DNA of 64,000 nucleotides, taken from positions 1,488,001 to 1,552,000 of the forward strand of contig NC_135903.1 of assembly GCF_964194155.1 (NCBI RefSeq), given 5' to 3'. The notes under the pieces are model-generated. The model ran no database searches. It was given only the letters and a program-made list of their open reading frames with translations, and was not told the origin of the DNA. The position numbers and the translations under genes are program-made. Position 1 is the stretch's first letter. Every line of letters begins with the position of its first letter. This document shows positions 23,144-57,471 of this stretch, one piece after another. Source of the DNA: Cetorhinus maximus. Lineage: Eukaryota.

Positions 23144-23806
23144 ATGCTGAGCTGTCGGGCTTTCCACCCTTCACGTCTGTGCCAGCAGCCTGTGTACACA
23201 TTGTGGCCTGTTCCACACAGGGTCTGGGAGCCGCTTGAATGCAACACGTGGAAAGAGGTGGAAGAAGCGAGAAAGAGCATGAACTTCATGGAGCGAGTTC
23301 TTGAGGAGCTGGCAAAAGAATTTTGGGAGGAAAAACCAAGAAATCAGGACAACAGGCCTGATGATAATGAAGAAGGTAAAAGACAATCAGAGGACAACGA
23401 GGGAAATGGCTTTTCTCTGTCCCTGGATGTCCAGCGATTCTCCCCAGAAGAACTGAATGTGAAAGTACTTGGAAGAAAAGTGCTGGTGACAGGAAAACAC
23501 GAGAAGAAAAGTGATGATGGCAGCGGCTCTTCCAGCTACAAATATGAAGAGTTGAGGAGAGAATTTCAGCTGCCAGAAGATGTCGATGCTGAAGCTCTTA
23601 ACTGCTGTTTGTCACAGGACGGTCAGTTAAAGGTTCAAGCCCCACGCCTGGCACTGCCAGCTGTGAATGAACGAGTCGTGCCCGTCAACATCACCTCGGA
23701 TACAACAACCAGTCCCCAGCTAAATCCTGGCCAATTGGCACCGAAACTGGAGAGTGGGAAGGATGAGGGGAACAAGGAAGAGGAGGAAGTAAAAATGGAC
23801 AATTAA
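23144..23806 (+). CDS. HSP30: hsp30/HSPB9-like copy 2 (220 aa)
   Basis: Intact ORF, near-identical to copy 1. Confidence 0.93.
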   Translation: MLSCRAFHPSRLCQQPVYTLWPVPHRVWEPLECNTWKEVEEARKSMNFMERVLEELAKEFWEEKPRNQDNRPDDNEEGKRQSEDNEGNGFSLSLDVQRFSPEELNVKVLGRKVLVTGKHEKKSDDGSGSSSYKYEELRREFQLPEDVDAEALNCCLSQDGQLKVQAPRLALPAVNERVVPVNITSDTTTSPQLNPGQLAPKLESGKDEGNKEEEEVKMDN

Positions 23807-25454
23807 AACTCATTTACAGTTATCTTTTGTAAGAAGTAAGAATGGTTTATTTGCAGAAATGAGTTTCTGAGACCATGAAACGAAGTCATAATGCTGAAAA
23901 TGAATTGTTAATGTGTAAGTCTGAACTGTGTTGTTATCGGAATTCATGTGGATTGTTTTTATATATATGTATTTGGAAAAATAAATACTTTTGAAAATAA
24001 TAGTGATGATTCAGCTTTTTTACCCTGTATAAAGAAACTAAAGTGACTCAGCGGAGAGACTAGACGTTTAGTTCTTATATTCTCAGTGAAGAAAAACATA
24101 TTTTAATTTGGATTCACCTAAAACCCAGAGAAAAAATTCTATTTGTCAAGATCTGTCTCCAACTGGTCTCAGTCCAGTAAACAATATATCAAATGATTGC
24201 ACAGACCCAGTGCACCAAATCTCTGTATTACTCTGCAGCCTGACAATGAGCAGCAACAACAGCTTATCTTCCAACACAGACACCAGACTGGACACCACTC
24301 AATTACTGATGGCGGAATCCTCTTTCATTGGAGTTACCTGTTCAATTTAAATAATTGGGAGTAAAAGCAAAGTTACTTGCATTGTAAGCAACTTTTATAA
24401 AGTTTCTGGGAAATAATAACACTGATCCAGTACTATTGAACATAAGAACATCTGGAACAGGAGCATGTGTAGGCCATTCGGCCCCTCAAGCCTCCTTCAC
24501 CATTCAATGCATCACAGTTTACCTAATTCTGGCCATAATTCCACCTTCCTCTCCGCTCCCCATGACCCTTGACTCCATTGTCAATCCAAAATCCATCTAA
24601 CAGCCTTGAATATACTCAAAGGCCCAGCTCTCCTGCTCACTGTGGAAGAGAGTTCCAATCGCAAACCTCCCTCTGAGAGAAGAAATTTCCCTGCATCTCC
24701 ATCTTAAGAGGCAGACCTCTTATTTTTAAAGTTTCTCCTAGTTCTTGACTTCCCCCCTGAGGGAGAATATCCTCTCAGCAGCTATCCTGTCCAGCCCCAA
24801 AGAATCTTCCACACTTCAATAAGGGATCTGTATCTTACTGGATCAGTGTGGTGTGTAATATTTCTTGCAGTGTCAGTCAGCAGTTATATTCCTTCAGCAA
24901 ATTTACTGTATGATACTGACGGACAAACAGCTCGTGTGTTTAGGTTGATGCTGGACAGTGGGAAACATCAACAATCGTATCACAGGTTGCGGAATACGTG
25001 AGTAACACCACAGCTTATTTATTTGTTAAAATGTTAAATGGTGTAAAAATGTAAATCCAGCCTCTGAACTTAGACTGAACCTGGAATCTATTTGATCGTA
25101 ATGCTGCCAAAACACACCTGAGAATAAAGATTTATGTTGTAGTTTATAGGAAACTCCTGTGTGTGATGGAAACTCTCATTTACCAATTTAGGAACTTATG
25201 ATGTTGAGAACTTGGCAACAACATTAATAGGCTGGGCCTTCATATTCATGAATTTAACATAATACAATATAAAATTAAAACATTGCTACATTTAATCAAT
25301 AATATGTTGTCAATGTTGATGTTATCATTGAAGAGACCAGAGGGAAGATGAGCAGTTTTCATTTGTGTTGTTTTTTGTTACTGGAATGGATGAAGTGAAA
25401 GGGTAGATTCTATGGCAACTTTCAATATGGAAAAAGATATATACCTGCAAAGAA

Positions 25455-25571
25455 ATAATTTGCAGAGTTTTGGCGAAAGAGCAGGGGAGTCGGGAGTAAT
25501 TGGATAGCACTTTCAAAGACCTGACATAGGTGTGGTGGACCGAATGGCCTCATTTTGAGCTGAGAGATTCT
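25455..25571 (+). mobile_element. Short CR1 3' tail, repeated in the 3.75-kb spacers and unit 12
   Basis: gaaagagcaggggag..ttggatagc..gaccgaatggcctc..gattct CR1 end. Confidence 0.6.
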
Positions 25572-25774
25572 GGACCTGTCAGTAATTTATTATTAATTTT
25601 CTATATTTGCAAATCTTATATCAAAATACATAATGGACAACATGCTTTAGTAATTATGAATTACACAGCAGCTTTATATGTATCTATTCTGTTTCTAAAC
25701 CTATGTTATTAGGATTAGAACGGAATTAATGCCTCAATCCGAACTTCACTCTTACAAAACTGATTTGAATTTCA

Positions 25775-26386
25775 AAAACAAAAACAGAAATACCTGGAAA
25801 AACTCAGCAGGTCTGGCAGCATCGGTGGAGAAGAGCACAGTTGACGTTTGAGTCCTCATGACCCTTCAACAGAACTAAGTAAAAATAGGAAAGGTGTGAA
25901 ATATAAGCTGGTTTAAGGGGGGGTGGGTGGGACAAGAAGAGTTGGATAGAGGGCCAGTGATAGGAGGAGATAACCAAAAGATGTCATAGACAAAAGGAAA
26001 AAAGAGGTGTTGAAGGGAGTGATATTATTTAAAGGAATGTGCTAATTAAGGGTAGAAAGCAGGACGAGCAAGGTATAGATAGCCCTAGTGGGGGAGGGGT
26101 GGGGTGAAGGAATACTAAAAAGGCTAAAAGGTAAAGATAAAGTAATGGATGGAAATACATTTAAATATAATGGAAATAGGTGGGAAAGGAAAAATCCATA
26201 TAAATTTTGGAAAAAACAAAAAGGAGGGGGGAAAACGGAAAGGGGGTGGGGATGGAGGAGAGAGTTCATGATCTAAAATTTTTGAACTCAATATTCAGCC
26301 CGGAAGGCTGTAAAGTGCCTAGTCGGAAGATGAGGTGCTGTTCCTCCAGTTTGCGTTGAGCTTCACTGGAACATTGCAGCAAGCCA
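25775..26386 (-). mobile_element. Penelope-like 3' fragment (GIY-YIG C-terminus + hammerhead-like motif), spacer 2-3
   Basis: Encodes GLLQCSSEAQRKLEEQHLIFRLGTLQPSGLNIEF; TSD ATTTGAATTTCA at 25763-25774 and 26387-26398; empty sites at 22642, 59508 and 63534. Confidence 0.85.
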
Positions 26387-26617
26387 ATTTGAATTTCACT
26401 CTTTTTCATTGATAGATGTGGCTTCAACATCTCAGAAATCAATGAAAACAGCAATACTAGAAAGAAAAACACCACATTCTCTCATAGAATCTGTTCAAAG
26501 TTCATTCAGTTAAACGCATCTTATTCTCAGAATATCTCATGTGTTTACACTTGCTCTGCCTTCTGTGAGGCTGTCAATCATTAACAATGCTCCTCCCATC
26601 TATTCCCTCACTGGCTG

Positions 26618-26790
26618 AGTACATTCCAGAAGTCTCTGGAACGGCTCCAGTGGGTGTCACTGAGTCGAGTCATTCTTGTTTAAAGCAAGGCTGGGATGAG
26701 ACGTCATTTATTTTCAGTTCACGTGTCATAAACCCAGCAAAGTTGAGTTCATTCTGGAAATGTCTGGGTTTCTGGGAGTAGAATATATAA
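26618..26790 (+). promoter_or_regulatory. hsp30 copy 3 promoter
   Basis: HSEs + TATATAA. Confidence 0.85.
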
Positions 26791-26883
26791 GGCGTGTGTT
26801 CTGAGTGCTGCAGCAGATCAGAGACTGAAGACTGGGAGTTCACATCAGTCGGTTTGAGAGAAGTGAGAGAAGAGGCAGAGACA

Positions 26884-27543
26884 ATGCTGAGCTGTCGGGC
26901 TTTCCACCCTTCACGTCGGTGCCAGCAGCCTGTGTACACATTGTGGCCTGTTCCACACAGGGTCTGGGAGCCTCTTGAATGCAACACGTGGAAAGAGGTG
27001 GAAGAAGCGAGAAAGAGCATGAACTTCATGGAGCGAGTTCTTGAGGAGCTGGCAAAAGAATTTTGGGAGGAAAAACCAAGAAATCAGGACAACAGGCCTG
27101 ATGATAATGAAGAAGGTAAAAGACAATCAGAGGACAAGGAGGGAGATGGCTTTTCCCTGTCCCTGGATGTCCAGCGATTCTCCCCAGAAGAACTGAATGT
27201 GAAAGTACTTGGAAAAAAAGTGCTGGTGACAGGAAAACACGAGAAGAAAAGTGATGATGGCAGCGGCTCTTACAGCTTCAATTATGAAGAGTTCAGGAGA
27301 GAATTTCAGCTGCCAGAAGATGTCGATGCTGAAGCTCTTAACTGCTGTTTGTCACAGGACGGTCGGTTAAAGGTTCAAGCCCCACGCCTGGCACTGCCAG
27401 CTGTGAATGAACGAATCGTGCCCGTCAACATCACCTCGGATACAACAACCAGTCCCCGGCTAAATCCTGGCCAAGAGGCACCGAAACTGGAGAGTGGGAA
27501 GGATGAGAGGAAAAATGAGGAGGAAGTGAAAATGGACAATTAA
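26884..27543 (+). CDS. HSP30: hsp30/HSPB9-like copy 3 (219 aa)
   Basis: Intact ORF with alpha-crystallin domain. Confidence 0.93.
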   Translation: MLSCRAFHPSRRCQQPVYTLWPVPHRVWEPLECNTWKEVEEARKSMNFMERVLEELAKEFWEEKPRNQDNRPDDNEEGKRQSEDKEGDGFSLSLDVQRFSPEELNVKVLGKKVLVTGKHEKKSDDGSGSYSFNYEEFRREFQLPEDVDAEALNCCLSQDGRLKVQAPRLALPAVNERIVPVNITSDTTTSPRLNPGQEAPKLESGKDERKNEEEVKMDN

Positions 27544-29511
27544 ATCTCATTTACAGTTATCTTTTGTAAGAAGTAAGAATGGTTTATTTGCAGAAATGAG
27601 TTTCTGAGACCATGAAATGAAGGCATAATGCTGAAAATGAATTGTTAATGTGTAAGTCTGAACTGTGTTGTTATCAGAATTCATGTGGATTGTTTTTATA
27701 TATATGTATTTGGAAAAATAAATACTTTTGAAAATAATAGTGATGATTCAGCTTTTTTACCTTGTATAAAGAAACTAAAGTGACTCAGCGGAGAGACTAG
27801 ACGTTTAGTTCCTATATTCTCAGTGAGGAAACACATATTTTAATTTGGATTCACCTAAAACCCAGAGAAAAAATTCTATTTGTCAAGATCTGTCTCCAAC
27901 TGGTCTCAGTCCAGTAAACAATATATCAAATTATTGCACAGACCCAGTGCACCAAATCTCTGTATTACTCTGCAGCCTGACAATGAGCAGCAACAACAGC
28001 TTATCTTCCAACACAGACACCAGACTGGACACCACTCAATTACTGATGGTGGAATCCTCTTTCATTGGAGTTACCTGTTCAATTTAAATAATTGGGAGTA
28101 AAAGCAAAGTTATTTGCATTGTTACCAACTTTTATAAAGTTTCTGTGAAATAATAACACTGATCCTGTACTACTGAACATAAGAACATCTGGAACAGGAG
28201 CATGCGTAGGCCATTCGGCCCCTCAAGTCTCCTTCACCATTCAATGCATCACAGTTTACCTAATTCTGGCCATAATTCCACCTTCCTCTCCGCTCCCCAT
28301 AACCCTTGACTCCATTGTCAATCCAAAATCCATCTAACAGCCTTGAATATAATCAAAGACCCAGCTCTCCTGCTCACTGTGGAAGAGAGTTCCAATCACA
28401 AAGGCCCCTCTGAGAGAAGACATTTCTCTGCATCTCCATCTTAAGTGGCAAACCTCTTATTTTTAAAGTGCCTCCTAGTTCTTGACTTCCCCCCTGAGGG
28501 AGAATATCCTCTCAGTAGCTATCCTGTCCAGCCCCAAAGAATCTTCCACACTTCAATAAGGGATCTGTATCTTAATGGATCAGTGTGGTGTGTAATATTT
28601 CTTGCAGTGTCAGTCAGCAGTTACATTCCTTCAGCAAATTTACTGTATGATACGGACGGACAAACAGATCGTGTGTTTAGGCTGATGTTGGACAGTGGGA
28701 AACATCAACAATCGTATCACAGGTTGCGGAATACGTGAGTAACACCACAGCTTATTTATTTGTTAAAATGTTAAATGGTGTAAAAATGTAAATCCAGTCT
28801 ATGAACTTAGACTGAACCTGGAATCTATTTGATCGTAATGCTGCCAAAACACACCTGAGAATAAAGATTTATGTTGTAGTTTGTAGGAAACTCCTGTGTG
28901 TGATGGAAACTCTCATTTACCAATTTAGGAACTTATGATGTTGAGAACTTGGCAACAACATTAATAGGCTGGGCCTTCATATTCATGAATTTAACATAAT
29001 ACAATAAAAAATTAAAACATTGCTACATTTTATCAATAATGTGTTGTCAATGTTGATGTTATCAGTGAAGAGACCAGAGGGAAGATGAGCAGTTTTCATT
29101 TGTGTTGTTTTTTGTTACTGGAATGGAAGAAGTGAAAGGGTAGATTCAATGGCAACTTTCAAAATGGAAAAAGATATATACCTGCAAAGAAATAATTTGC
29201 AGAGTTTTGGCGAAAGAGCAGGGGAGTCGGGAGTAATTGGATAGCACTTTGAAAGACCTGGCATAGGTGTGATGGACCGAATGGCCTCTTTTTGAACTGA
29301 GAGATTCTGGACCTGTCAGTAATTTATTATTAATTTTCTATATTTGCAAATCTTATATCAAAATACATAATGGACAACATGCTTTAGTAATTATGAATTA
29401 CACAGCAGCTTTATATGTATCTATTGTGTTTTTAAACCTATGTTATTAGGATTAGAACGGAATTAATGCCTCAATCCAAACTTCACTCTTACAAAACTGA
29501 TTTGAATTTCA

Positions 29512-30133
29512 AAAACAAAAACAGAAATACCTGGAAAAACTCAGCAGGTCTGGCAGCATCGGCGTAGAAGAGCACAGTTGACGTTTCGAGTCCTCACGAC
29601 CTTTCAACGGAACTAAGTAAAAATAGGAAAGGGGTGAAATATAATCTGGTTTAAGTGGGGTGGGGTGGGGTTGGGACAAGAAGAGCTAGGTAAAGGGCCA
29701 GTGATAGGAGGAGATAACCAAAGGATGTCACAGACAAAAGGAAAAAAGAGGTGTTGAAGGTGGTGATATTATCTAAAGGAATGTGCTCATTAAGGGTAGA
29801 AAGCAGGACGAGCAAGGTACAGATAGCCCTAGTGGGGGTGGGGTGGGGTGAAGGAATACTAAAAAGGCTAAAAGGTAAAGATAAAGCAATGGATGGAAAT
29901 ACATTTAAAAATAATGGAAATAGGTGGGAAAAGAAAAACCCATATAAATTATTGGAAAAAACAAAAAGGAGGGTGTTAAAACGGAAAGGGGGTTGGGGAT
30001 GGAGGAGAGAGTTCATGATCTAAAGTTGTTGAACTCAATATTCAGTCTGGAAGGCTGTAAAGTGCCTAGTTGGAAGATGAGGTGCTGTTCCTCCAGTTTG
30101 CGTTGAGCTTCACTGGAACAATGCAGCAAGCCG
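29512..30133 (-). mobile_element. Penelope-like fragment, spacer 3-4
   Basis: Copy of 25775-26386 with the same TSD (one mismatch). Confidence 0.85.
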
Positions 30134-30370
30134 AATTGAATTTCACTCTTTTTCATTGATAGATGTGGCTTCAACATCTCAGAAATCAATGAAAACAGCA
30201 ATACTAGAAAGAAAAAGATCGAGTCCTCATTCTCTCATAATATCTGTTCAAAGTTCATTAAGTTAAACGCATCTTATTCTCAGAATATCTCATGTGTTTA
30301 CACTTGCTCTGCCTTCTGTGAGGCTGTCAATCATTAACAATGCTCCTCCCATCTATTCCCTCACTGGCTG

Positions 30371-30543
30371 AGTACATTCCAGAAGTCTCTGGAACGGCTC
30401 CAGTGAGTGTCACTGAGTCGAGTCATTCTTGTTTAAAGCAAGGCTGGGATGAGATGTCATTTATTTGCAGCTCACGTGTCATGAGTCCAGCAAAGTTGAG
30501 TTCATTCTGGAAATGTCTGGGTTTCTGGGAGTAGAATATATAA
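30371..30543 (+). promoter_or_regulatory. hsp30 copy 4 promoter
   Basis: HSEs + TATATAA. Confidence 0.85.
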
Positions 30544-30636
30544 GGCGTGTGTTCTGAGTGCTGCAGCAGATCAGAGACTGAAGACTGGGAGTTCACATCA
30601 GTCGGTTTGAGAGAAGTGAGAGAAGAGGCAGAGACA

Positions 30637-31296
30637 ATGCTGAGCTGTCGGGCTTTCCACCCTTCACGTCTGTGCCAGCAGCCTGTGTACACATTGTGGC
30701 CTGTTCCACACAGGGTCTGGGAGCCGCTTGAATGCAACACGTGGAAAGAGGTGGAAGAAGCGAGAAAGAGCATGAACTTCATGGATCAAGTTCTTGAGGA
30801 GCTGGCAAAAGAATTTTGGGAGGAAAAACCAAGAAATCAGGACAACAAAACTGATGATAATAAAGAAGGCAAAGGACAATCAGACGACAAGGAGGGAAAT
30901 GGCTTTTCTCTGTCCCTGGATGTCCAGCGATTCTCCCCAGAAGAACTGAATGTGAAAGTACTTGGAAGAAAAGTGCTGGTGACAGGAAAACACGAGAAGA
31001 AAAGTGATGATGGCAGCGGCTCTTCCAGCTACAAATATGAAGAGTTCAGGAGAGAATTTCAGCTGCCAAAAGATGTCGATGCTGAAGCTCTTAACTGCTG
31101 TTTGTCACAGGACGGTCGGTTAAAGGTTCAAGCCCCACGCCTGGCACTGCCAGCTGTGAATGAACGAACCGTGCCCGTCAACATCACCTCGGATACAACA
31201 ACCAGTCCCCGGCTAAATCCTGGCCAAGAGGCACAGAAACTGGAGAGTGGGAAGGATGAGAGAAAAAATGAGGAGGAAGTGAAAATGGACAATTAA
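30637..31296 (+). CDS. HSP30: hsp30/HSPB9-like copy 4 (type A, 219 aa)
   Basis: Intact ORF; diagnostic MDQV, DNKTDDNK, LPKD, EAQK. Confidence 0.93.
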   Translation: MLSCRAFHPSRLCQQPVYTLWPVPHRVWEPLECNTWKEVEEARKSMNFMDQVLEELAKEFWEEKPRNQDNKTDDNKEGKGQSDDKEGNGFSLSLDVQRFSPEELNVKVLGRKVLVTGKHEKKSDDGSGSSSYKYEEFRREFQLPKDVDAEALNCCLSQDGRLKVQAPRLALPAVNERTVPVNITSDTTTSPRLNPGQEAQKLESGKDERKNEEEVKMDN

Positions 31297-33264
31297 ATCT
31301 CATTTACAGTTATCTTTTGTAAGAAGTAAGAATGGTTTATTTGCAGAAATGAGTTTCTGAGACCATGAAATGAAGGCTTAATGCTGAAAATGAATTGTTA
31401 ATGTGTAAGTCTGAACTGTGTTGTTATCAGAATTCATGTGGATTATTTTGATATATATGTATTTGGAAAAATAAATACTTTTGAAAATAATAGTGATGAT
31501 TCAGCTTTTTTACCCTGTATAAAGAAACTAAAGTGACTCAGCGGAGAGACTAGACGTTTAGTTCCTATATTCTCAGTGAGGAAAAACATATTTTAATTTG
31601 GATTCACCTAAAACCCAGAGAAAAAATTCTATTTGTCAAGATCTGTCTCCAACTGGTCTCACTCCAGAAAACAATATATCAAATGATTGCACAGACCCAG
31701 TGCACCAAATCTCTGTATTACTCTGCAGCCTGACAATGAGCAGCAACAACAGCTTATCTTCCAACACAGACACCAGACTGGACACCACTCCATTACTGAT
31801 GGTGGAATCCTCTTTCATTGGAGTTACCTGTTCAATTTAAATAATTGGGAGGAAAAGCAAAGTTAGTTGCATTGTAAGCAACTTTTATAAAGTTTCTGTG
31901 AAATAATATTACTGATCCTGTACTATTGAACATAAGAACATCTGGAACAGGAGAATGCGTAGGCCATTCGGCCCCTCAAGCCTCCTTCACCATTCAATGC
32001 ATCACAGTTTACCTAATTCTGGACGTAATTCCACCTTCCTCTCCGTTCCCCACAACCCTTGACTCCATTGTCAATCCAAAATCCATCTAACAGCCTTGAA
32101 TATAATCAAAGACCCAGCACTCCTGCTCACTGTGGAAGAGAGTTCCAATCACAAAGGCCCCTCTGAGAGAAGAAATTTCTCGGCATCTCCATCTTAAGTG
32201 GCAGACCTCTTATTTTTAAAGTGCCTCCTAGTTCTTGATTTCCCCCCTGAGGGAGAACATCCTCTCAGCAGCTATCCTGTCCAGCCCCAAAGAATCTTCC
32301 ACACTTCAGTAAGGGATCTGTATCTTACTGGATCAGTGTGGTGTGTAATATTTCTTGCAGTGTCAGTCAGCAGTTATATTCCTTCAGCAAATTTACTGTA
32401 TGATACTGACGGACAAACAGCTCGTGTGTTTAGGTTGATGCTGGACAGTGGGAAACATCAACAATCGTATCACAGGTTGCGGAATACGTGATTAACACCA
32501 CAGCTTATTTATTTGTTAAAATGTTAAATGGTGTAAAAATGTAAATCCAGCCTCTGAACTTAGTCTGAACCTGGAATCTATTTGATCGTAACGCTGCCAA
32601 AACACACCTGAGAATAAAGATTTATGTTGTAGTTTATAGGAAACTCCTGTGTGTGATGGAAACTCTCATTTACCAATTTAGGAAGTTATGATGTTGAGAA
32701 CTTGGCAACAACATTAATAGGCTGGGCCTTCATATTCATGAATTTAACATAATACAATATAAAATTAAAACATTGCTACATTTTATCAATAATATGTTGT
32801 CAATGTTGATGTTATCAGTGAAGAGACCAGAGGGAAGATGAGCAGTTTTCATTTGTGTTGTTTTTTGTTACTGGAATGGATGGAGTGAAAGGGTAGATTC
32901 TATGGCAACTTTCAATATGGAAAAAGATATATACCTGCAAAGAAATAATTTGCAGAGTTTTGGCGAAAGAGCAGGGAAGTCGGGAGTAATTGGATAGCAC
33001 TTTCAAAGACCTGACATAGGTGTGGTGGACCGAATGGCCTCATTTTGAGCTGAGAGATTCTGGACCTGTCAGTAATTTATTATTAATTTTCTATATTTGC
33101 AAATCTTATATCAAAATACATAATGGACAACATGCTTTAGTAATTATGAATTACACAGCAGCTTTATATGTATCTATTCTGTTTCTAAATCTATGTTATT
33201 AGGATTAGAATGGAATTAATGCCTCAATCCGAACTTCACTCTTACAAAACTGATTTGAATTTCA

Positions 33265-33875
33265 AAAACAAAAACAGAAATACCTGGAAAAACTCAGATG
33301 GTCTGGTAGCATCGGTGGAGAAGAGGACAGTTGACGTTTCGAATCCTCATGACCCTTCAACAGAACTAAGTAAAAATAGGAAATGGGTGAAATATAAGCT
33401 GGTTTAAGGGGGGGTGGGTGGGACAAGAAGAGTTGGATAGAGGGCCAGTGATAGGAGGAGATAACCAAAAGATGTCATAGACAAAAGGAAAAAAGAGGTG
33501 TTGAAGGGAGTGATATTATTTAAAGGAATGTGCTAAGTAAGGGTAGAAAGCAGGACGAGCAAGGTACAGATAGCCCTAGTGGGGGGTGGGGTGGGGTGAA
33601 GGAATACTAAAAAGGCTAAAAAGTAAAGATAAAGTAATGGATGGAAATACATTTAAATATAATGGAAATAGGTGGGAAAGGAAAAATCCATATAAATTTT
33701 GGAAAAAACAAAGAGGGGGGAAAACGGAAAGGGGGTGGGGATGGAGGAGAGAGTTCATGATCTAAAATTGTTGAACTCAATATTCAGTCTGGAAGGTTGT
33801 AAAGTGCCTAGTCGGAAGATGAGGTGCTGTTCCTCCAGTTTGCTTTGAGATTCACTGGAACAATGCAGCAAGCCA
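33265..33875 (-). mobile_element. Penelope-like fragment, spacer 4-5
   Basis: Same insertion and TSD. Confidence 0.85.
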
Positions 33876-34106
33876 ATTTGAATTTCACTCTTTTTCATTG
33901 ATAGATGTGGCTTCAACATCTCAGAAATCAATGAAAACAGCAATACTAGAAAGAAAAAGACCACATTCTCTCATAGAATCTGTTCAAAGTTCATTCAGTT
34001 AAACGCATCTTATTCTCAGAATATCTCATGTGTTTACACTTGCTCTGCCTTCTGTGAGGCTGTCAATCATTAACAATGCTCCTCCCATCTGTTCCCTCAC
34101 TGGCTG

Positions 34107-34279: not shown

Positions 34280-34372
34280 GGCGTGTGTTCTGAGTGCTGC
34301 AGCAGATCAGAGACTGAAGACTGGGAGTTCACATCAGTCGGTTTGAGAGAAGTGAGAGAAGAGGCAGAGACA

Positions 34373-48245: not shown

Positions 48246-48859
48246 AAAACAAAAACAGAAATACCTGGAAAAACTCAGATGGTCTGGTAGCATCGGTGGA
48301 GAAGAGGACAGTTGACGTTTCGAATCCTCATGACCCTTCAACAGAACTAAGTAAAAATAGGAAATGGGTGAAATATAAGCTGGTTTAAGGGGGGGTGGGT
48401 GGGACAAGAAGAGTTGGCTAGAGGGCCAGTGATAGGTGGAGATAACCAAAAGATGTCATAGACAAAAGGAAAAAAGAGGTGTTGAAGGGAGTGATATTAT
48501 TTAAAGGAATGTGCTAAGTAAGGGTAGAAAGCAGGACGAGCAAGGTACAGATAGCCCTAGTGGGGGGTGGGGTGGGGTGAAGGAATACTAAAAAGGCTAA
48601 AAAGTAAAGATAAAGTAATGGATGGAAATACATTTAAATATAATGGAAATAGGTGGGAAAGGAAAAATCCATATAAATTTTGGAAAAAACAAAAAGGAGG
48701 GGGGAAAACGGAAAGGGGGTGGGGATGGAGGAGAGAGTTCATGATCTAAAATTGTTGAACTCAATATTCAGTCTGGAAGGTTGTAAAGTGCCTAGTCGGA
48801 AGATGAGGTGCTGTTCCTCCAGTTTGCTTTGAGATTCACTGGAACAATGCAGCAAGCCA
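48246..48859 (-). mobile_element. Penelope-like fragment, spacer 8-9
   Basis: Same insertion and TSD. Confidence 0.85.
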
Positions 48860-49090
48860 ATTTGAATTTCACTCTTTTTCATTGATAGATGTGGCTTCAA
48901 CATCTCAGAAATCAATGAAAACAGCAATACTAGAAAGAAAAAGACCACATTCTCTCATAGAATCTGTTCAAAGTTCATTCAGTTAAACGCATCTTATTCT
49001 CAGAATATCTCATGTGTTTACACTTGCTCTGCCTTCTGTGAGGCTGTCAATCATTAACAATGCTCCTCCCATCTGTTCCCTCACTGGCTG

Positions 49091-49263
49091 AGTACATTCC
49101 AGAAGTCTCTGGAACGGCTCCAGTGGGTGTCACTGAGTCGAGTCATTCTTGTTTAAAGCAAGGCTGGGATGAGATGTCATTTATTTGCAGCTCACGTGTC
49201 ATGAGTCCAGCAAAGTTGAGTTCATTCTGGAAATGTCTGGGTTTCTGGGAGTAGAATATATAA
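49091..49263 (+). promoter_or_regulatory. hsp30 copy 9 promoter
   Basis: HSEs + TATATAA. Confidence 0.85.
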
Positions 49264-49356
49264 GGCGTGTGTTCTGAGTGCTGCAGCAGATCAGAGACTG
49301 AAGACTGGGAGTTCACATCAGTCGGTTTGAGAGAAGTGAGAGAAGAGGCAGAGACA

Positions 49357-50016
49357 ATGCTGAGCTGTCGGGCTTTCCACCCTTCACGTCTGTGCCAGCA
49401 GCCTGTGTACACATTGTGGCCTGTTCCACACAGGGTCTGGGAGCCTCTTGAATGCAACAGGTGGAAAGAGGTGGAAGAAGTGAGAAAGAGCATGAACTTC
49501 ATGGAGCGAGTTCTTGAGGAGATGGCAAAAGAATTTTGGGAGGAAAAACCAAGAAATCAGGACAAGAGACCTGATGATAATGAAGAAGGGAAAAGACAAT
49601 CAGAGGACAAGGAGGGAGATGGCTTTTCCCTGTCCCTGGATGTCCAGCGATTCTCCCCAGAAGAACTGAATGTGAAAGTACTTGGAAGAAAAGTGCTGGT
49701 GACAGGAAAACACGAGAAGAAAAGTGATGATGGCAGCGGCTCTTCCAGCTTCAATTATGAAGAGTTGAGGAGAGAATTTCAGCTGCCAGAAGATGTCGAT
49801 GCTGAAGCTCTTAACTGCTGTTTGTCACAGGACGGTCGGTTAAAGGTTCAAGCCCCACGCCTGGCACTGCCTGCTGTGAATGAACGAACCGTGCCCGTCA
49901 ACATCACCTCGGATACAACAACCAGTCCCCGGCTAAATCCTGGCCAAGAGGCAGAGAAACTGGAGAGTGGGAAGGATCAGAGGAAAAATGAGGAGGAAGT
50001 AAAAATGGACAATTAA
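49357..50016 (+). CDS. HSP30: hsp30/HSPB9-like copy 9 (type B)
   Basis: Intact ORF; differs from copy 5 by F>L (EELRR). Confidence 0.93.
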   Translation: MLSCRAFHPSRLCQQPVYTLWPVPHRVWEPLECNRWKEVEEVRKSMNFMERVLEEMAKEFWEEKPRNQDKRPDDNEEGKRQSEDKEGDGFSLSLDVQRFSPEELNVKVLGRKVLVTGKHEKKSDDGSGSSSFNYEELRREFQLPEDVDAEALNCCLSQDGRLKVQAPRLALPAVNERTVPVNITSDTTTSPRLNPGQEAEKLESGKDQRKNEEEVKMDN

Positions 50017-51984
50017 ACCTCAATTACATTTATCTTTTGTACGATGTAAGAATGGTTTATTTGCAGAAATGAGTTTCTGAGACTATGAAACAAAGGCTTA
50101 ATGCTGAAAATGAATTGTTAATGTGTAAGTCTGAACTGTGTTGTTATAAGAATTCATGTGGATTGTTTTTATATATATGTATTTGGAAAAATAAATACTT
50201 TTGAAAATAATAGTGATGATTCAGCTTTTTTACCTTGTATAAAGAAACTAAAGTGACTCAGCGGAGAGACTAGACGTTTAGTTCCTATATTCTCAGTGAA
50301 GAAACACATATTTTAATTTGGATTCACCTAAATCCCAGAGAAAAAATTCTATTTGTCAAGATCTGTGTACAACTGGTCTCAGTCCAGAAAAAAATATATC
50401 AAATTATTGCACAGACCCAGTGCACCACATCTTTGTATTACCCTGCAGCCTGACAATGAGCAGCAACAACAGCTTATCTTCCAACACAGACACCAGACTG
50501 GACACCACTCAATTACTGATGGTGGAATCCTCTTTCATTGGAGTTACCTGTTCAATTTAAATAATTGGGAGTAAAAACAAAGTTATTTGCATTGTAAGCA
50601 ACTTTTATAAAGTTTCTGTGAAATAATAATACTGATCCTGTACTATTGAACATAAGAACATCTGGAACAGGAGCATGCGTAGGCCATTCGGCCCCTCAAG
50701 CCTCCTTCACCGTTCAATGGATCACAGTTTACCTAATTCTGGCCGTAATTCCACCTTCCTCTCCGTTCCCCATAACTCTTGACTCCATTGTCAATCCAAA
50801 ATCCATCTAACAGCCTTGAATATAATCAAAGACCCAGCTCTCCTGCTCACTGTGGAAGAGAGTTCCAATCGCAAACCTCCCTCTGAGAGAAGAAATTTCC
50901 CTGCATCTCCATCTTAAGTGGCAAACCTCTTATTTTTAAAGTGCCTCCTAGTCCTTGACTTCCCCCCTGAGGGAGAATATCCTCTCAGCAGCTATCCTGT
51001 CCAGCCCCAAAGAATCTTCCACACTTCAATAAGGGATCTGTATCTTAATGGATCAGTGTGGTGTGTAATATTTCTTGCAGTGTCAGTCAGCAGTTACATT
51101 CCTTCAGTAAATTTACTGTATGATACTGACGGACAAACAGCTCGTGTGTTTAGGTTGATGCTGGACAGTGGGAAACATCAACAATCGTATCACAGGTTGC
51201 GGAATACGTGAGTAACGCCACAGCTTATTTATTTGTTAAAATGTTAAATGGTGTAAAAATGTAAATCCAGTCTATGAACTTAGACTGAACCTGGAATCTA
51301 TTTGATCGTAATGCTGCCAAAACACACCTGAGAATAAAGATTTATGTTGTAGTTTATAGGAAACTCCTGTGTGTGATGGAAACTCTCATTTACCAATTTA
51401 GGAACTTATGATGTTGAGAACTTGGCAACAACATTAATAGGCTGGGCCTTCATATTCATGAATTTAACATAATACAATATAAAATTAAAACATTGCTACA
51501 TTTTATCAATAATATGTTGTCAATGTTGATGTTATCAGTGAAGAGACCAGAGGGAAGATGAGCAGTTTTCATTTGTGTTGTTTTTTGTTACTGGAATGGA
51601 TGAAGTGAAAGGGTAGATTCTATGGCAACTTTCAATATGGAAAAAGATATATACCTGCAAAGAAATAATTTGCAGAGTTTTGGCGAAAGAGCAGGGAAGT
51701 CGGGAGTAATTGGATAGCACTTTCAAAGACCTGACATAGGTGTGGTGGACCGAATGGCCTCATTTTGAACTGAGAGATTCTGGACCTGTCAGTAATTTAT
51801 TATTAATTTTCTATATTTGCAAATCTTATATCAAAATACATAATGGACAACATGCTTTAGTAATTATGAATTACACAGCAGCTTTATATGTATCTATTGT
51901 GTTTTTAAACCTATGTTATTAGGATTAGAACGGAATTAATGCCTCAATCCAAACTTCACTCTTACAAAACTGATTTGAATTTCA

Positions 51985-52607
51985 AAAACAAAAACAGAAA
52001 TACCTGGAAAAACTCAGCAGGTCTGGCAGCATCGGCGTAGAAGAGCACAGTTGACGTTTCGAGTCCTCACGACCTTTCAACGGAACTAAGTAAAAATAGG
52101 AAAGGGGTGAAATATAATCTGGTTTAAGTGGGGTGGGGTGGGGTTGGGACAAGAAGAGCTAGGTAAAGGGCCAGTGATAGGAGGAGATAACCAAAGGATG
52201 TCACAGACAAAAGGAAAAAAGAGGTGTTGAAGGTGGTGATATTATCTAAAGGAATGTGCTCATTAAGGGTAGAAAGCAGGACGAGCAAGGTACAGATAGC
52301 CCTAGTGGGGGGTGGGGTGGGGTGAAGGAATACTAAAAAGGCTAAAAGGTAAAGATAAAGCAATGGATGGAAATACATTTAAAAATAATGGAAATAGGTA
52401 GGAAAAGAGAAATCCATATAAATTATTGGAAAAAACAAAAAGGAGGGGGGAAGAACGGAAAAGGGGGTGGGAATGGAGGAGAGAGTTCATGATCTAAAGT
52501 TGTTGAACTCAATATTCAGTCTGGAAGGCTGTAAAGTGCCTAGTTGGAAGATGAGGTGCTGTTCCTCCAGTTTGCGTTGGGCTTCACTGGAACATTGCAG
52601 CAAGCCA
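51985..52607 (-). mobile_element. Penelope-like fragment, spacer 9-10
   Basis: Same insertion and TSD. Confidence 0.85.
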
Positions 52608-52844
52608 ATTTGAATTTCACACTTTTTCATTGATAGATGTGGCTTCAACATCTCAGAAATCAATGAAAACAGCAATACTAGAAAGAAAAAGACCGAGTCC
52701 TCATTCTCTCATAATATCTGTTCAAAGTTCATTCAGTTAAACGCATCTTATTCTCAGAATGTCTCATGTGTTTACACTTGCTCTGCCTTCTGTGAGGCTG
52801 TCAATCATTAACAATGCTCCTCCCATCTATTCCCTCATTGGCTG

Positions 52845-53017
52845 AGTACATTCCAGAAGTCTCTGGAACGGCTCCAGTGAGTGTCACTGAGTCGAGTCAT
52901 TCTTGATTAAAGCAAGGCTGGAATGAGATGTCATTTACTTGCAGCTCACGTGTCATAAACCCAGCAAAGTTGAGTTCATTCTGGAAATGTCTGGTTTTCT
53001 GGGAGTAGAGTATATAA
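52845..53017 (+). promoter_or_regulatory. hsp30 copy 10 promoter
   Basis: HSEs + TATATAA, with a few private substitutions. Confidence 0.85.
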
Positions 53018-53110: not shown

Positions 53111-53770
53111 ATGCTGAGCTGTCGGGCTTTCCACCCTTCACGTCTGTGCCAGCAGCCTGTGTACACATTGTGGCCTGTTCCACACAGGGTCTGGGAGCCG
53201 CTTGAATGCAACAGTTGGAAAGAGGTGGAAGAAGCGAGAAAGAGCATGAACTTCATGGAGCGAGTTCTTGAGGAGCTGGCAAAAGAATTTTGGGAGGAAA
53301 AACCAAGAAATCAGGACAACAAAACTGATGATAATGAAGAAGGCAAAAGACAGTCAGAGGACAAGGAGGGAAATGGCTTTTCTCTGTCCCTGGATGTCCA
53401 GCGATTCTCCCCAGAAGAACTGAATGTGAAAATACTTGGAAGAAAAGTGCTGGTGACAGGAAAACACGAGAAGAAAAGTGATGATGGCAGCGGCTCTTCC
53501 AGCTACAAATTTGAGGAGATCAGGCGAGAATTTAAGCTGCCAGAAGATGTCGATGCTGAAGCTCTTAACTGCTGTTTGTCACAGGACGGTCGGTTAAAGG
53601 TTCAAGCCCCACGCCTGGCACTGCCAGCTGTGAATGAACGAACCGTGCCCGTCAACATCACCTCGGATACAACAACCAGTCTCCGGCTAAATCCTGGCCA
53701 AGAGGCAGAGAAACTGGAGAGTGGGAAGGATGAGAGGAAAAATGAGGAGGAAGTAAAAATGGACAATTAA
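53111..53770 (+). CDS. HSP30: hsp30/HSPB9-like copy 10 (219 aa)
   Basis: Intact ORF; private KFEEIRREFK variant. Confidence 0.93.
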   Translation: MLSCRAFHPSRLCQQPVYTLWPVPHRVWEPLECNSWKEVEEARKSMNFMERVLEELAKEFWEEKPRNQDNKTDDNEEGKRQSEDKEGNGFSLSLDVQRFSPEELNVKILGRKVLVTGKHEKKSDDGSGSSSYKFEEIRREFKLPEDVDAEALNCCLSQDGRLKVQAPRLALPAVNERTVPVNITSDTTTSLRLNPGQEAEKLESGKDERKNEEEVKMDN

Positions 53771-55740
53771 AACTCATTTACAGTTATCTTTTGTAAGAAG
53801 TAAGAATGGTTTATTTGCAGAAATGAGTTTCTGAGACCATGAAATGAAGGCATAATGCTGAAAATGAATTGTTAATGTGTAAGTCTGAACTGTGTTGTTA
53901 TCAGAATTCATGTGGATTCTTTTTATATATATGTATTTGGAAAAATAAATACTTTTGAAAATAATAGTGATGATTCAGCTGTTTTACCTTGTATAAAGAA
54001 ACTAAAGTGACTCAGCGGAGAGACTAGACGTTTAGTTCCTATATTCTCAGTGAGGAAATACATATTTTAATTTGGATTCACCTAAAACCCAGAGAAAAAA
54101 TTCTATTTGTCAAGATCTGTCTCCAACTGGTCTCAGTCCAGTAAACAATATATCAAATTATTGCACAGACCCAGTGCACCAAATCTCTGTATTGCCCTGC
54201 AGCCTGACAATGAGCAGCAACAACAGCTTATCTTCCAACACAGACACCAGACTGGACACCACTCAATTACTGATGGTGGAATCCTCTTTCATTGGGGTTA
54301 CCTGTTCAATTTAAATAATTGGGAGTAAAAGCAAAGTTACTTGCATTGTAAGCAACTTTTATAAAGTTTCCGTGAAATAATAACACTGATCCTGTACTAT
54401 TGAACATAAGAACATCTGGAACAGGAGCATGCGTAGGCCATTCGGCCCCTCAAATCTCCTTCACCATTCAATGCATCACAGTTTACCTAATTCTGGCCGT
54501 AATTCCACCTTCCTCTCCGCTCCCCATAACCCTTGACTCCATTGTCAATCCAAAATCCATCTAACAGCCTTGAATATAATCCAAGACCCAGCTCTCCTGC
54601 TCACTGTGGAAGAGAGTTCCAATCGCAAACCTCCCTCTGAGAGAAGAAATTTCCCTGCATCTCCATCTTAAGTGGCAAACCTCTTATTTTTAAAGTGCCT
54701 CCTAGTTCTTGACTTCCCCCCTGAGGGAGAACATCCTCTCAGCAGCTATCCTGTCCAGCCTCAAAGAATCTTCCACACTTCAATAAGGGATCTGTATCTT
54801 ACTGGATCAGTATGGTGTGTAATATTTCTTGCATTGTCAGTCAGCAGTTACATTCCTTCAGTAAATTTACTGTATGATACTGATGGACAAACAGCTCATG
54901 TGTTTAGGTTGATGCTGGACAGTGGGAAACATCAGCAATCGTATCACAGGTTGTGGAATACGTGAGTAACACCACAGCTTATTTATTTGTTAAAATGTTA
55001 AATGGTGTAAAAATGTAAATCCAGTCTATGAACTTAGACTGAACCTGGAATCTATTTGATCGTAATGCTGCCAAAACACACCTGAGAATAAACATTTATG
55101 TTGCAGTTTATAGGAAACTCCTGTGTGTGATGGAAACTGTCATTTACCAATTTAGGAAGTTATGATGTTGAGAACTTGGCAACAACATTAATAGGCTGGG
55201 CCTTCATATTCATGAATTTAACATAATACAATATATAAAATTAAAACATTTTTACATTTTATCAATAATGTGTTGTCAATGTTGATGTTATCAGTGAAGA
55301 GACCAGAGGGAAGATGAGCAGTTTTCATTTGTGTTGTTTTTTGTTACTGGAATGGATGAAGTGAAAGGGTAGATTCAATGGCAACTTTCAAAATGGAAAA
55401 AGATATATACCTGCAAAGAAATAATTTGCAGAGTTTTGGTGAAAGAGCAGGGGAGTCGGGAGTAATTGGATAGCACTTTCAAAGACCTGACATAGGTGTG
55501 GTGGACCGAATGGCCTCATTTTGAGCTGAGAGATTCTGGACCTGTCAGTAATTTGTTATTAATTTTCTATATTTGCAAATGTTATATCAAAATACATAAT
55601 GGACAACATGCTTTAGTAATTATGAATTACACAGCAGCTTTATATTTGTCTATTCTGTTTATAAACCTATGTTATTAGGATTAGAACGGAATTAATGCCT
55701 CAATCCGAACTTCACTCTTACAAAACTGATTTGAATTTCA

Positions 55741-56350
55741 AAAACAAAGACAGAAATACCTGGAAAAACTCAGCAGGTCTGGCAGCATCGGTGGAGAAGA
55801 GCACAGTTGACGTTTCGAGTCCTCATGACCCTTCAACAGAACTAAGAAAAATAGGAAAGGGGTGAAATATAAGCTGGTTTAAGGAGGGTGGGGGGGGGGC
55901 AGTTGGGACAAGAAGCCAGTGATAGGTGGAGATAACCAAAAGATGTCACAGACAAAAGGAAGAAAGAGGTGTTGACGGTGGTGATATTATCTAAAGGAAT
56001 GTGCTCATTAAGGGTAGAAAGCAGGACGAGCAAGGTACAGATAGCCCTAGTGGGGGTGGGGTGGGGTGAAGGAATACTAAAATGGCTAAAAGGTAAAGAT
56101 AAAGCAATGGATGGAAATACATTTAAAAATAATGGAAATAGGTGGGAACAGAAAAATCTATATAAATTATTGGAAAAAACAAAAAGGAGGGGGGAAAACG
56201 GAAACGGGGTTGGGGATGGAGGAGAGAGTTCATGATCTAAAATTGTTGAACTCAATATTCAGTCTAGAAGGCTGTAAAGTGCCTAGTTGGAAGATGAGGT
56301 GCTGTTCCTCCAGTTTGCTTTGAGATTCACTGGAACAATGCAGCAAGCCA
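55741..56350 (-). mobile_element. Penelope-like fragment, spacer 10-11
   Basis: Same insertion and TSD. Confidence 0.85.
55805..55843 (-). ncRNA. Hammerhead-like motif in the spacer PLE (best-preserved of nine copies)
   Basis: Minus strand AGTT-CTGTTGA-A-GGGTC(atgag)GACTC-GAAA-CG-TC-AACT: helix I AGTT/AACT, helix II, ACGT helix III, GUC site; core has A6>U. Confidence 0.45.
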
Positions 56351-56581
56351 ATTTGAATTTCACTCTTTTTCATTGATAGATGTGGCTTCAACATCTCAGA
56401 AATCAATGAAAACAGCAATACTAGAAAGAAAAACACCACATTCTCTCATAGAATCTGTTCAAAGTTCATTCAGTTAAACACATCTTATTCTCAGAATGTC
56501 TCATGTGTTTACACTTGCTCTGCCTTCTGTGAGGCTGTCAATCATTAACAATGTTCCTCCCATCTGTTCCCTCACTGGCTG

Positions 56582-56754
56582 AGTACATTCCAGAAGTCTC
56601 TGGAACGGCTCCAGTGGGTGTCACTGAGTCGAGTCATTCTTGTTTAAAGCAAGGCTGGGATGAGACGTCATTTGTTTTCAGCTCACGTGTCATAAACCCA
56701 GCAAAGTTGAGTTCATTCTGGAAATGTCTGGGTTCCTGTGAGTAGAATATATAA
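56582..56754 (+). promoter_or_regulatory. hsp30 copy 11 promoter
   Basis: HSEs + TATATAA; TATA-proximal element altered (ttcctgtgag). Confidence 0.8.
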
Positions 56755-56847
56755 GGCGTGTGTTCTGAGTGCTGCAGCAGATCAGAGACTGAAGACTGGG
56801 AGTTCACATCAGTCGGTTTGAGAGAAGTGAGAGAAGAGGCAGAGACA

Positions 56848-57471
56848 ATGCTGAGCTGTCGGGCTTTCCACCCTTCACGTCTGTGCCAGCAGCCTGTGTA
56901 CACATTGTGGCCTGTTCCACACAGGGTCTGGGAGCCGCTTGGATGCAACACGTGGAAAGAGGTGGAAGAAGCGAGAAAGAGCATGAACTTCATGGAGCGA
57001 GTTCTTGAGGAGCTGGCAAAAGAATTTTGGGAGGAAAAACCGAGAAATCGGGACAACAGACCTGATGATAATGAAGAAGGTAAAAGACAATCAGAGGACA
57101 AGGAGGGAGATGGCTTTTCTCTGTTCCTGGATGTCCAGCGATTCTCTCCAGAAGAACTGAATGTGAAAATACTTGGAAGAAAAGTGCTGGTGACAGGAAA
57201 ACACGAGAAGAAAAGTGATGATGGCAGCGGCTCTTCCAGCTACAAATATGAAGAGTTGAGGAGAGAATTTCAGCTGCCAGAAGATGTCGATGCTGAAGCT
57301 CTTAACTGCTGTTTGTCACAGGACGGTCGGTTAAAGGTTCAAGCCCCACCCCTGGCACTGCCAGCTGTGAATGAACGAACCGTGCCCGTCAACATCACCT
57401 CGGATATAACAACCAGTCCCCGGCTAAATCCTGGCCAAGAGGCCCCAAAACTGGAGAGTGGAAAACAATGA
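56848..57471 (+). CDS. HSP30: hsp30/HSPB9-like copy 11, C-terminally truncated (207 aa)
   Basis: Frameshift after ESGK gives an early TGA; the ancestral MDN* remnant follows at ~57499-57510. Confidence 0.8.
   Translation: MLSCRAFHPSRLCQQPVYTLWPVPHRVWEPLGCNTWKEVEEARKSMNFMERVLEELAKEFWEEKPRNRDNRPDDNEEGKRQSEDKEGDGFSLFLDVQRFSPEELNVKILGRKVLVTGKHEKKSDDGSGSSSYKYEELRREFQLPEDVDAEALNCCLSQDGRLKVQAPPLALPAVNERTVPVNITSDITTSPRLNPGQEAPKLESGKQ

What the first reader, a model, noticed from the sequence alone, without database searches (positions are those of the whole stretch)
23144..56848. Satellite-like higher-order (A/B dimer) organisation of a protein-coding array
Seen: unit lengths alternate 3736-3740 and 3753-3754 bp over nine units. 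Copies 4/6/8 share one protein type and 5/7/9 another, with a dimer period of 7489-7493 bp. Spacer marks alternate as well (gaccgagtcctcattc before even copies, accacattc before odd copies). Inference: the amplified unit was a two-gene cassette, which holds two isoforms near 1:1 dosage and could matter for hetero-oligomeric sHSPs.
Basis: partly seen in the sequence, partly recalled or inferred. Interest (0 to 1): 0.7.

Follow-up and report, generated by a model that had tools for sequence, protein, structure and literature searches.

The report
Triplicated hsp30 gene pair in shark
Inside a cluster of about 20 small heat-shock (hsp30-type) genes in a shark, a 7.5-kb block holding two neighbouring genes is present three times in a row, likely through ordinary unequal crossing-over, and nothing found suggests that the two alternating proteins are a specially paired set.

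Summary
The alternation is real. The window lies in a 20-gene, intronless hsp30/hspb11-like cluster of a lamniform shark. Unit lengths, spacer marks and the two protein types alternate as reported. The near-identical dimers number three, at 30407-52879. They are 99.7% identical to each other, whereas any two monomers differ by about 3.5%. Copies 2, 3 and 10 share the two-unit phase only in patches of the distal spacer. The two internal junctions are hybrids of copy-9-type and copy-3-type DNA that switch within a 68-bp promoter interval: the footprint of an unequal crossover offset by two units, later blurred by gene conversion. The dosage idea is not supported. A and B are 3+3 of 20 genes, have identical proximal promoters, and differ no more than typical paralogue pairs. 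Twelve of their 17 differing positions carry residues found in other copies, and none of 18 white-shark copies groups with A or B. Public contigs (one sample, possibly the assembly's own) fit the paralogue set and roughly 2-4 dimers but cannot show A-B adjacency. It is a small higher-order repeat of whole genes, like the human AMY1A-AMY1B block.

The parts
30407..37895 (+). Dimer copy D1 (promoter + gene A copy 4 + spacer + promoter + gene B copy 5 + spacer), 7489 bp
37896..45387 (+). Dimer copy D2 (copies 6 and 7), 7492 bp; 99.75% to D1
45388..52879 (+). Dimer copy D3 (copies 8 and 9), 7492 bp; 99.76% to D2, 99.68% to D1
30637..31296 (+). hsp30-like gene copy 4, type A, 219 aa, single ORF, Pfam HSP20 at residues 85-182
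34373..35032 (+). copy 5, type B, 219 aa
38126..38785 (+). copy 6, type A (protein identical to copy 4)
41865..42524 (+). copy 7, type B
45618..46277 (+). copy 8, type A
49357..50016 (+). copy 9, type B
37853..37921 (.). Hybrid junction at the end of unit 5: copy-9-type alleles up to 37853, copy-3-type alleles from 37921; inferred crossover interval, -272 to -205 from the next ATG, spanning the distal HSE-like motif
   Evidence: 9 informative sites before, 8 after
45345..45413 (.). Same hybrid junction at the end of unit 7
23144..26883 (+). Unit 2 (220-aa gene + spacer): same 3.74-kb monomer family, A-like only in the distal spacer
26884..30636 (+). Unit 3: own gene type; spacer 29297-30105 differs from unit 5 at 1 of 805 sites (likely conversion in two-unit register)
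53111..56847 (+). Unit 10: own gene type, equidistant from A and B; shares the A-type 6-bp deletion mark at its far end
34101..34461 (.). 361-bp tract identical between A and B units (proximal promoter, 5' UTR, first 30 codons); repeated before copies 4-9 with at most 1 difference; likely gene conversion
   Evidence: permutation p = 2e-4; 91 pairs among 14 copies differ at 3-15 of 349 sites
32593..33178 (.). About 590-bp spacer tract with 2 differences between A and B (other pairs 3-21); likely gene conversion
30376..30395 (+). Distal heat-shock-element-like motif (about -260), aligned in all 20 copies; consensus recalled
30504..30513 (+). Proximal HSE-like motif (about -132)
30537..30543 (+). 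TATA box (TATATAA, -100)
31470..31475 (+). Poly(A) signal AATAAA of copy 4
33259..33865 (.). About 600-bp high-copy interspersed-repeat fragment in the spacer; present in units 2-10 and in no other unit, so it marks them as one monomer expansion
   Evidence: homology of other units stops at +2628; word depth 1e5-1e6
19994..20656 (+). copy 1 (220 aa), different 3.15-kb unit type
56848..57471 (+). copy 11, ends early at 207 aa, 3.16-kb unit type like copy 1
60010..60669 (+). copy 12 (219 aa)
15941..16338 (-). Inverted partial hsp30 copy (fragment)

Best explanation
Three near-identical copies of a 7.49-kb two-gene block lie in tandem inside a 20-gene shark hsp30 cluster; they likely arose by unequal crossing-over between promoters two units apart, and the A/B alternation is likely a passive by-product of that offset rather than a selected pairing. 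Steps. (1) Shown: units 2-10 are one family of 3.74-kb monomers that share a repeat insertion and differ by about 3.5%. (2) Inferred from the hybrid junctions: the ancestral order was 3-A-B-10; mispairing by two units put B's spacer against copy 3's spacer, and a crossover 272-205 bp upstream of the ATG gave 3-A-B-A-B-10. (3) Inferred: a second crossover between the now near-identical 7.5-kb blocks gave the third copy, roughly 1-3 million years ago on borrowed shark rates. (4) Shown as patterns, inferred as process: gene conversion has worked in one-unit register (identical A/B promoter tract) and in two-unit register (unit 3 spacer = unit 5 spacer), so the even/odd phase leaks into flanking units. 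(5) Inferred function: all copies are heat-inducible chaperone genes; A and B would enter a statistical mixture of oligomers with the products of the other 14 genes, and any benefit would be total hsp30 dose.
For: Dimers 99.68-99.76% identical against 102-149 substitutions between unlike monomers. Units 5 and 7 follow copy 9 at 9 of 9 informative sites in columns 3233-3491 and copy 3 at 8 of 8 sites from column 3559. 19 of 30 columns that vary among sister A or sister B units match an allele of another unit (a 3-bp indel left out). A/B identical tract of 361 bp, p = 2e-4. A-B protein identity is 92.2%; 41 of 105 paralogue pairs, this one included, are as or less identical, median 93.2%. At 12 of 17 A/B positions both residues occur in other copies. 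pN 0.034 vs pS 0.031, no excess over site expectation. No white-shark copy groups with A or B; 17 of 18 form their own group (93/78). NAHR that adds or removes a two-gene block is described for AMY1A-AMY1B (10.1101/2023.11.27.568916, passages). A statistical mixture is the expected state after duplication of a homomer (PMC9548406, passages).
Against: The whole-unit tree does split all nine units into even and odd at 100/99, and unit 2 groups with A at 95/97. An older two-unit duplication under the recent one is therefore possible, and two-unit recombination may be recurrent here. Two of the three A/B differences in the alpha-crystallin domain (Y132F, K133N) align to the start of the beta6+7 strand, which forms the vertebrate dimer interface (PMC6119766, passages). 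A-B ranks 17th of 105 pairs by non-synonymous differences, 10 of 16 in residues 48-88. A-B pN/pS is about 1.1 against a family mean of 0.60, on only 4 synonymous changes. A-B adjacency and the count of three were not shown from reads. The white-shark comparison used proteins only, and its clade support is modest.
Confidence: 0.82

Rival explanations
1. Selected pairing: A and B are functionally complementary subunits, and amplification as a block is kept because it preserves a 1:1 ratio in hetero-oligomers.
For: 3 A + 3 B with identical proximal promoters; Y132F and K133N lie at the beta6+7 strand by alignment to alphaB-crystallin; A and B differ at 10 non-synonymous sites in residues 48-88; vertebrate sHSPs do co-assemble, some at fixed ratios (PMC6119766, passages).
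Against: 14 other full-length copies dilute the pair; F132/N133 also occur in copy 3, and the same strand varies in copies 9, 10, 14 and m3; only B departs from the family consensus there, so there is no reciprocal change in A; no A or B counterpart in 18 white-shark proteins; no excess of amino-acid change.
Confidence: 0.06
2. Assembly artefact: the order or number of dimers comes from interleaved haplotypes or false duplication.
For: The dimers are 99.7% identical over 7.5 kb, which assemblers can miscount. No listed contig piece bridges an A-specific and a B-specific site (32 pieces listed). On the 16 fully reconstructed pieces the depth fit is flat from 1 to 4 dimers.
Against: A and B differ by 3.5% plus indels, like any two paralogues, not like alleles. 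Three distinct dimer versions exist (18-24 substitutions apart), more than two haplotypes could supply. The junctions have a crossover structure. No second contig holds a close copy among the candidates scored. 40 of 40 listed contig variants are alleles of units 2-10 (10 more were not shown). On 28 of 32 pieces the depth fit is best at 3-4 dimers (residual 0.172-0.174, against 0.246 for one and 0.188 for six).
Confidence: 0.06
3. Layered two-unit history: units 2+3 are an older copy of the same A+B dimer, so the array has been amplifying in two-unit steps for a long time and is a maturing higher-order repeat.
For: Whole-unit and distal-spacer trees group 2 with A and 3 with B; the derived 6-bp deletion is shared by the ends of units 2, 4, 6, 8 and 10; the protein tree joins copy 3 with B (95/87) and copy 10 with A (95/88).
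Against: Over columns 1-2420, unit 2 is 76 from A and 78-79 from B, unit 3 is 78 from A and 70-71 from B, unit 10 is 82 from A and 77-80 from B; informative sites there favour no pairing. Patchy conversion in two-unit register explains the same signal. This reading is compatible with the best explanation and differs only in depth of history.
Confidence: 0.25

Closest known systems
Human AMY1A-AMY1B two-gene block (10.1101/2023.11.27.568916, passages read)
   Same: A block of two paralogous genes is gained or lost as one by non-allelic homologous recombination; chimeric segments mark the breakpoints; gene conversion blurs dating.
   Different: AMY1 proteins are identical and the segments are far larger; here the two genes are 92% identical sHSPs in a 7.5-kb head-to-tail block inside a 20-gene cluster, and polymorphism is untested.
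NBPF 3mer higher-order repeats (Olduvai triplets) and alpha-satellite HORs (PMC9584774, passages read)
   Same: Divergence between higher-order copies is about ten times smaller than between monomers; the copies are in tandem; NBPF HORs are also protein-coding.
   Different: NBPF monomers are exon pairs within one gene, about 18% apart, with up to 19 HOR copies per array; alpha-satellite monomers are 20-40% apart. Here monomers are whole genes 3.5% apart and there are three dimers.
Tandem, species-specific sHSP clusters of insects and nematodes (PMC2745388, passages read); hsp30 family of frogs, fish and birds (PMC5101479 and PMC3511540, passages read)
   Same: Intronless sHSP genes in tandem, lineage-specific expansion ascribed to unequal crossing-over; HSE-driven induction is described for Xenopus hsp30.
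   Different: The silkworm study found little gene conversion; here conversion tracts are evident. A duplicated two-gene sHSP block (C. elegans hsp-16.1/hsp-16.48 inverted repeat) is recalled, not checked.
Fixed-ratio sHSP hetero-oligomers, HspB2/HspB3 3:1 (PMC6119766, passages read)
   Same: Same protein family and the same beta6+7 dimer interface.
   Different: Those partners are old, conserved, strongly diverged paralogues (recalled); A and B are young, lineage-restricted and 92% identical, with no sign of reciprocal interface change.

Membership tests
Vertebrate hsp30/hspb11-like small heat-shock proteins | Alpha-crystallin (HSP20) domain | tested here: met
   PF00011 at E about 1e-19, residues 85-182, in both A and B; best PDB sequence match alphaB-crystallin
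Vertebrate hsp30/hspb11-like small heat-shock proteins | Nearest named relatives are hsp30/hspb11-like | tested here: met
   Top hits among 71 are shark and ray 'heat shock protein beta-11-like / 30C-like'
Vertebrate hsp30/hspb11-like small heat-shock proteins | Intronless gene | tested here: met
   One ORF of 207-231 aa per copy in 20 of 20 copies; no transcript evidence
Vertebrate hsp30/hspb11-like small heat-shock proteins | C-terminal IXI/V motif | tested here: met
   VPV aligns with IPI of alphaB-crystallin
Vertebrate hsp30/hspb11-like small heat-shock proteins | HSE and TATA promoter | tested here: met
   Motifs at -260, -132 and -100, aligned across 20 copies; consensus recalled, function not shown
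Vertebrate hsp30/hspb11-like small heat-shock proteins | Synteny with KAT2A as for mammalian HSPB9 (recalled) | tested here: inconclusive
   PCAF_N exons begin 15 kb beyond the last copy (C26:1607186); whether this gene is KAT2A or KAT2B was not determined
Vertebrate hsp30/hspb11-like small heat-shock proteins | Heat-inducible expression and chaperone activity | not testable with these tools
   No expression or assay data
Higher-order repeat (Willard-type definition as in PMC9584774) | Divergence between HOR copies much smaller than between monomers | tested here: met
   0.24-0.32% vs about 3.5%
Higher-order repeat (Willard-type definition as in PMC9584774) | [quoted passage not shown] | tested here: met
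   Three tandem A-B copies, the minimum
Satellite-type HOR array | Strongly diverged monomers (about 18-40%) and long arrays | tested here: not met
   Monomers 3.5% apart; three dimers; depth fit gives no sign of a large collapsed array
Fixed-ratio sHSP hetero-oligomer pairs (HspB2/B3 type) | Two partner lineages conserved across species | tested here: not met
   0 of 18 white-shark proteins group with A or B
Fixed-ratio sHSP hetero-oligomer pairs (HspB2/B3 type) | Preferential co-assembly at a set ratio | not testable with these tools
   Needs native MS; no complex prediction was run, as it could not rank hetero- against homo-assembly of 92%-identical chains

The most novel reading that the evidence does not exclude
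The A-B block is a selected unit: B's changed beta6+7 interface residues and A's distinct N-terminal linker make a preferred heteromer, and two-unit recombination plus promoter homogenisation keeps the two at equal dose while spreading the even/odd phase into neighbouring genes, a gene cluster caught turning into a stoichiometry-locking higher-order repeat.
Probability: 0.06. Interest if true: 0.65.

Novelty: new member of a known kind. Interest (0 to 1): 0.25.

Why it matters
As read here it is a clean, small example of how a higher-order repeat starts in an array of whole genes, with the crossover mapped to 68 bp and conversion visible in both registers. It is useful for studying concerted evolution in slowly evolving shark genomes, but it answers no open question. 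The larger setting may matter more to a specialist: sharks and rays carry many hsp30 copies, and my ten literature searches (listings only, open-access library) showed no paper on this cluster. If the pairing were selected, it would be a rare case of genome architecture fixing subunit ratio.

Tried and rejected
1. Older dimer repeat in the minus-strand arm beyond the window (gene spacing 3658, 3153, 3672, 3092; a 5.3-kb match at 94.6%): rejected, since the second units have different spacer types and the match is one similar monomer plus the next gene. The same holds for units 1+2 against 11+12. 2. Type A as a conversion product of the divergent end copy m6: 4 of the 9 departures of A from the majority in nucleotides 150-262 are shared with m6, 3 with copy 10 and 2 with copy 12; no single donor, left open. 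3. Positive selection on residues 48-88: 10 non-synonymous to 1 synonymous change is what site counts predict (binomial p = 1.0; Fisher against the rest p = 0.28). The script stopped with an error after printing the values used. 4. Absolute copy number from read depth: no single-copy calibration was obtained, so only a relative fit was possible; 4 of 32 pieces were dropped for two or more unknown letters, and the 16 complete pieces give a flat fit. 5. Expression: no RNA holder listed. 6. Tandem Repeats Finder found only two short G-rich rows (period limit 500). 8. Earlier scan notes: none near this place or by sequence; one unrelated non-coding mammalian repeat by words. 9. Two papers were not held; passages of PMC11485256 gave nothing usable. 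No supplements were read. 10. Genomic order of copies in other sharks could not be examined, as only proteins were available.
Full report
Setting. The window is G000:C26:1488001-1552000 in a 3.99-Gb genome. It holds 12 intronless ORFs of 207-220 aa and one inverted fragment, with a Pfam HSP20 domain in the two tested. The nearest named proteins are shark 'hspb11-like / hsp30C-like'. NCBI proteins matching five copies just outside the window carry Cetorhinus maximus names, so this is a lamniform shark. With the flanks the cluster has 20 full-length genes encoding 19 distinct proteins: 14 on the plus strand, then 6 on the minus strand. PCAF_N exons start 15 kb beyond the last copy. That fits the HSPB9-KAT2A neighbourhood of mammals, which I recall and did not verify.

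Observation. Lengths of units 2-10 are 3740, 3753, 3736, 3753, 3739, 3753, 3739, 3754 and 3737, with two-unit periods of 7489-7493. Units 4/6/8 differ by 2-9 substitutions, units 5/7/9 by 17-24, and all other pairs by 81-149. The order is non-random (p = 8.8e-5, exact permutation). The odd mark precedes 5 of 5 odd copies. The even mark is exact before 3 of 5 even copies, has one mismatch before copy 4 and is absent before copy 2. The even form resembles that of copy 13 and other outside copies, so the 6-bp deletion is likely the derived state.

Anatomy. The near-identical region is three 7.49-kb blocks, 30407-37895, 37896-45387 and 45388-52879, which are 18-24 substitutions apart (99.68-99.76%). 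Units 2-10 share a 600-bp high-copy repeat fragment that other units lack, so a monomer expansion came first. Over the gene and proximal spacer, units 2, 3 and 10 are equidistant from A and B. The whole-unit tree nevertheless splits even from odd at 100/99. That signal is in the distal spacer (100/100) and drops to 72/79 without it. In a tree of -250 to +690 for all 20 copies, only 4/6/8 and 5/7/9 are strongly supported clades, and they are not sisters.

Mechanism. At sites where unit 3 and unit 9 differ, units 5 and 7 follow unit 9 at 9 of 9 sites in columns 3233-3491 and unit 3 at 8 of 8 sites from column 3559. This is the hybrid expected if an ancestral 3-A-B-10 array mispaired by two units and crossed over 272-205 bp upstream of the ATG, around the distal HSE-like motif (inference). 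A second exchange between the blocks would give the third copy. Conversion is visible in both registers. A and B are identical over 361 bp around the promoter (p = 2e-4), whereas 91 pairs among 14 copies differ there at 3-15 of 349 sites. They differ at 2 sites in a 590-bp spacer tract. Unit 3 matches unit 5 at 804 of 805 spacer sites. Of 30 columns that vary among sister units, 19 match another unit's allele and 11 are private among the nine aligned units. Eleven changes in 3 x 7.49 kb, at 1.8e-10 per site per year (derived from the mako and white-shark values in PMC9826928, passages read), give roughly 1-3 million years. This is an order of magnitude only: the changes are unevenly spread, and some may be conversions from copies outside the nine.

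Artefact check. Close matches to the protein and to a 1.2-kb spacer probe lie only on C26 among the candidates scored. Four runs of one sample, possibly the assembly's own and so not independent, were laid as contigs on D1. All 40 listed variants are alleles of units 2-10 (10 more not shown). Depth per assembled k-mer copy is fairly even. A fit of dimer number on 28 of 32 pieces is best at 3-4 (residual 0.172-0.174; 0.246 for one, 0.188 for six), but on the 16 complete pieces it is flat from 1 to 4. No single-copy calibration was obtained, and no listed piece bridges A- and B-specific sites. The alternation is very unlikely to be interleaved alleles, since A and B differ like paralogues. The exact count of three is plausible but unproven.

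Do A and B form a functional pair? They differ at 17 of 219 residues. At 12 of these both residues occur in other copies; R35, M56 and Q208 are private to B, D83 and K145 to A. Identity is 92.2% against a family median of 93.2%. The pair ranks 17th of 105 by non-synonymous differences, with pN 0.034 and pS 0.031 against a family ratio of 0.60, with no excess over site expectation. Y132F and K133N align to the start of the beta6+7 strand, the vertebrate dimer interface (PMC6119766, passages). In a 50-protein tree, 0 of 18 white-shark proteins group with A or B, and 17 form their own group at 93/78. Promoter motifs are shared by all 20 copies, so A and B would each supply about 15% of the pool if all copies are equally active (inference). 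A statistical mixture of oligomers is the expected state after duplication (PMC9548406, passages).

Comparison and verdict. It meets the formal definition of a higher-order repeat at the minimum of three copies (PMC9584774, passages) but not the scale or monomer divergence of satellite HORs. The closest mechanism is the AMY1A-AMY1B block (10.1101/2023.11.27.568916, passages). Tandem, lineage-specific sHSP clusters are known (PMC2745388, passages). Ten searches of the open library (listings and abstract starts) showed no description of this shark cluster; subscription papers and supplements were not seen. Verdict: real, explained by known processes, a new member of a known kind; interest 0.25.

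Noticed in passing
G000:C26:1507994-1591737: The whole cluster has 20 full-length hsp30-like genes in two convergent arms (14 plus, 6 minus). Protein clusters suggest large families in other elasmobranchs too (members per cluster: 16 Scyliorhinus canicula, 14 Hemiscyllium, 13 Chiloscyllium punctatum, 24 Leucoraja); at least 18 white-shark proteins were retrieved. No paper on this expansion turned up in my searches.
   Followed up: partly
G000:C26:1591108-1591737 (copy m6, locus L004): The end copy nearest the PCAF_N gene is divergent (21-27 aa from the others) and groups with white-shark P0012 at 100/99: an orthologous anchor copy that escapes homogenisation.
   Followed up: partly
G000:C26:1607186-1619484: PCAF_N (KAT2-type) exons start 15 kb from the cluster, divergently oriented to the last hsp30 copy; recalls the mammalian HSPB9-KAT2A arrangement.
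   Followed up: partly
window 56848-57471: Copy 11 ends at 207 aa by an early TGA and lacks the acidic C-terminal tail; copy m5 has a longer 231-aa frame.
   Followed up: partly
upstream of copies 6, 8 and 10 (about -277): A C-to-T change creates ATTGG (a reverse CCAAT box) just upstream of the distal HSE-like motif in these three promoters, not in copy 4.
   Followed up: no
window 37415-37487 vs 44907-44979: A 73-bp patch inside the spacer repeat differs at about 10 sites between units 3/5 and units 7/9; possibly ectopic conversion from a dispersed repeat copy.
   Followed up: partly
copies 14 (G000:C26:1557162) and m3 (G000:C26:1579425): These two copies on opposite arms differ by 1 aa over the first 204 columns and group at 86/99: likely conversion across the inversion.
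   Followed up: partly
white-shark proteins P0003, P0088, P0089: Three near-identical proteins suggest a separate recent local amplification in that species; gene order unknown.
   Followed up: no
window 12267-14549, minus strand: Fragmented LINE-like element with an endonuclease ORF (PF03372, PF14529).
   Followed up: partly
window 19203-19665: Two inverted pieces of the same high-copy repeat found in the unit 2-10 spacers lie just upstream of copy 1; the layout recalls Penelope-like element ends (recalled, untested).
   Followed up: no
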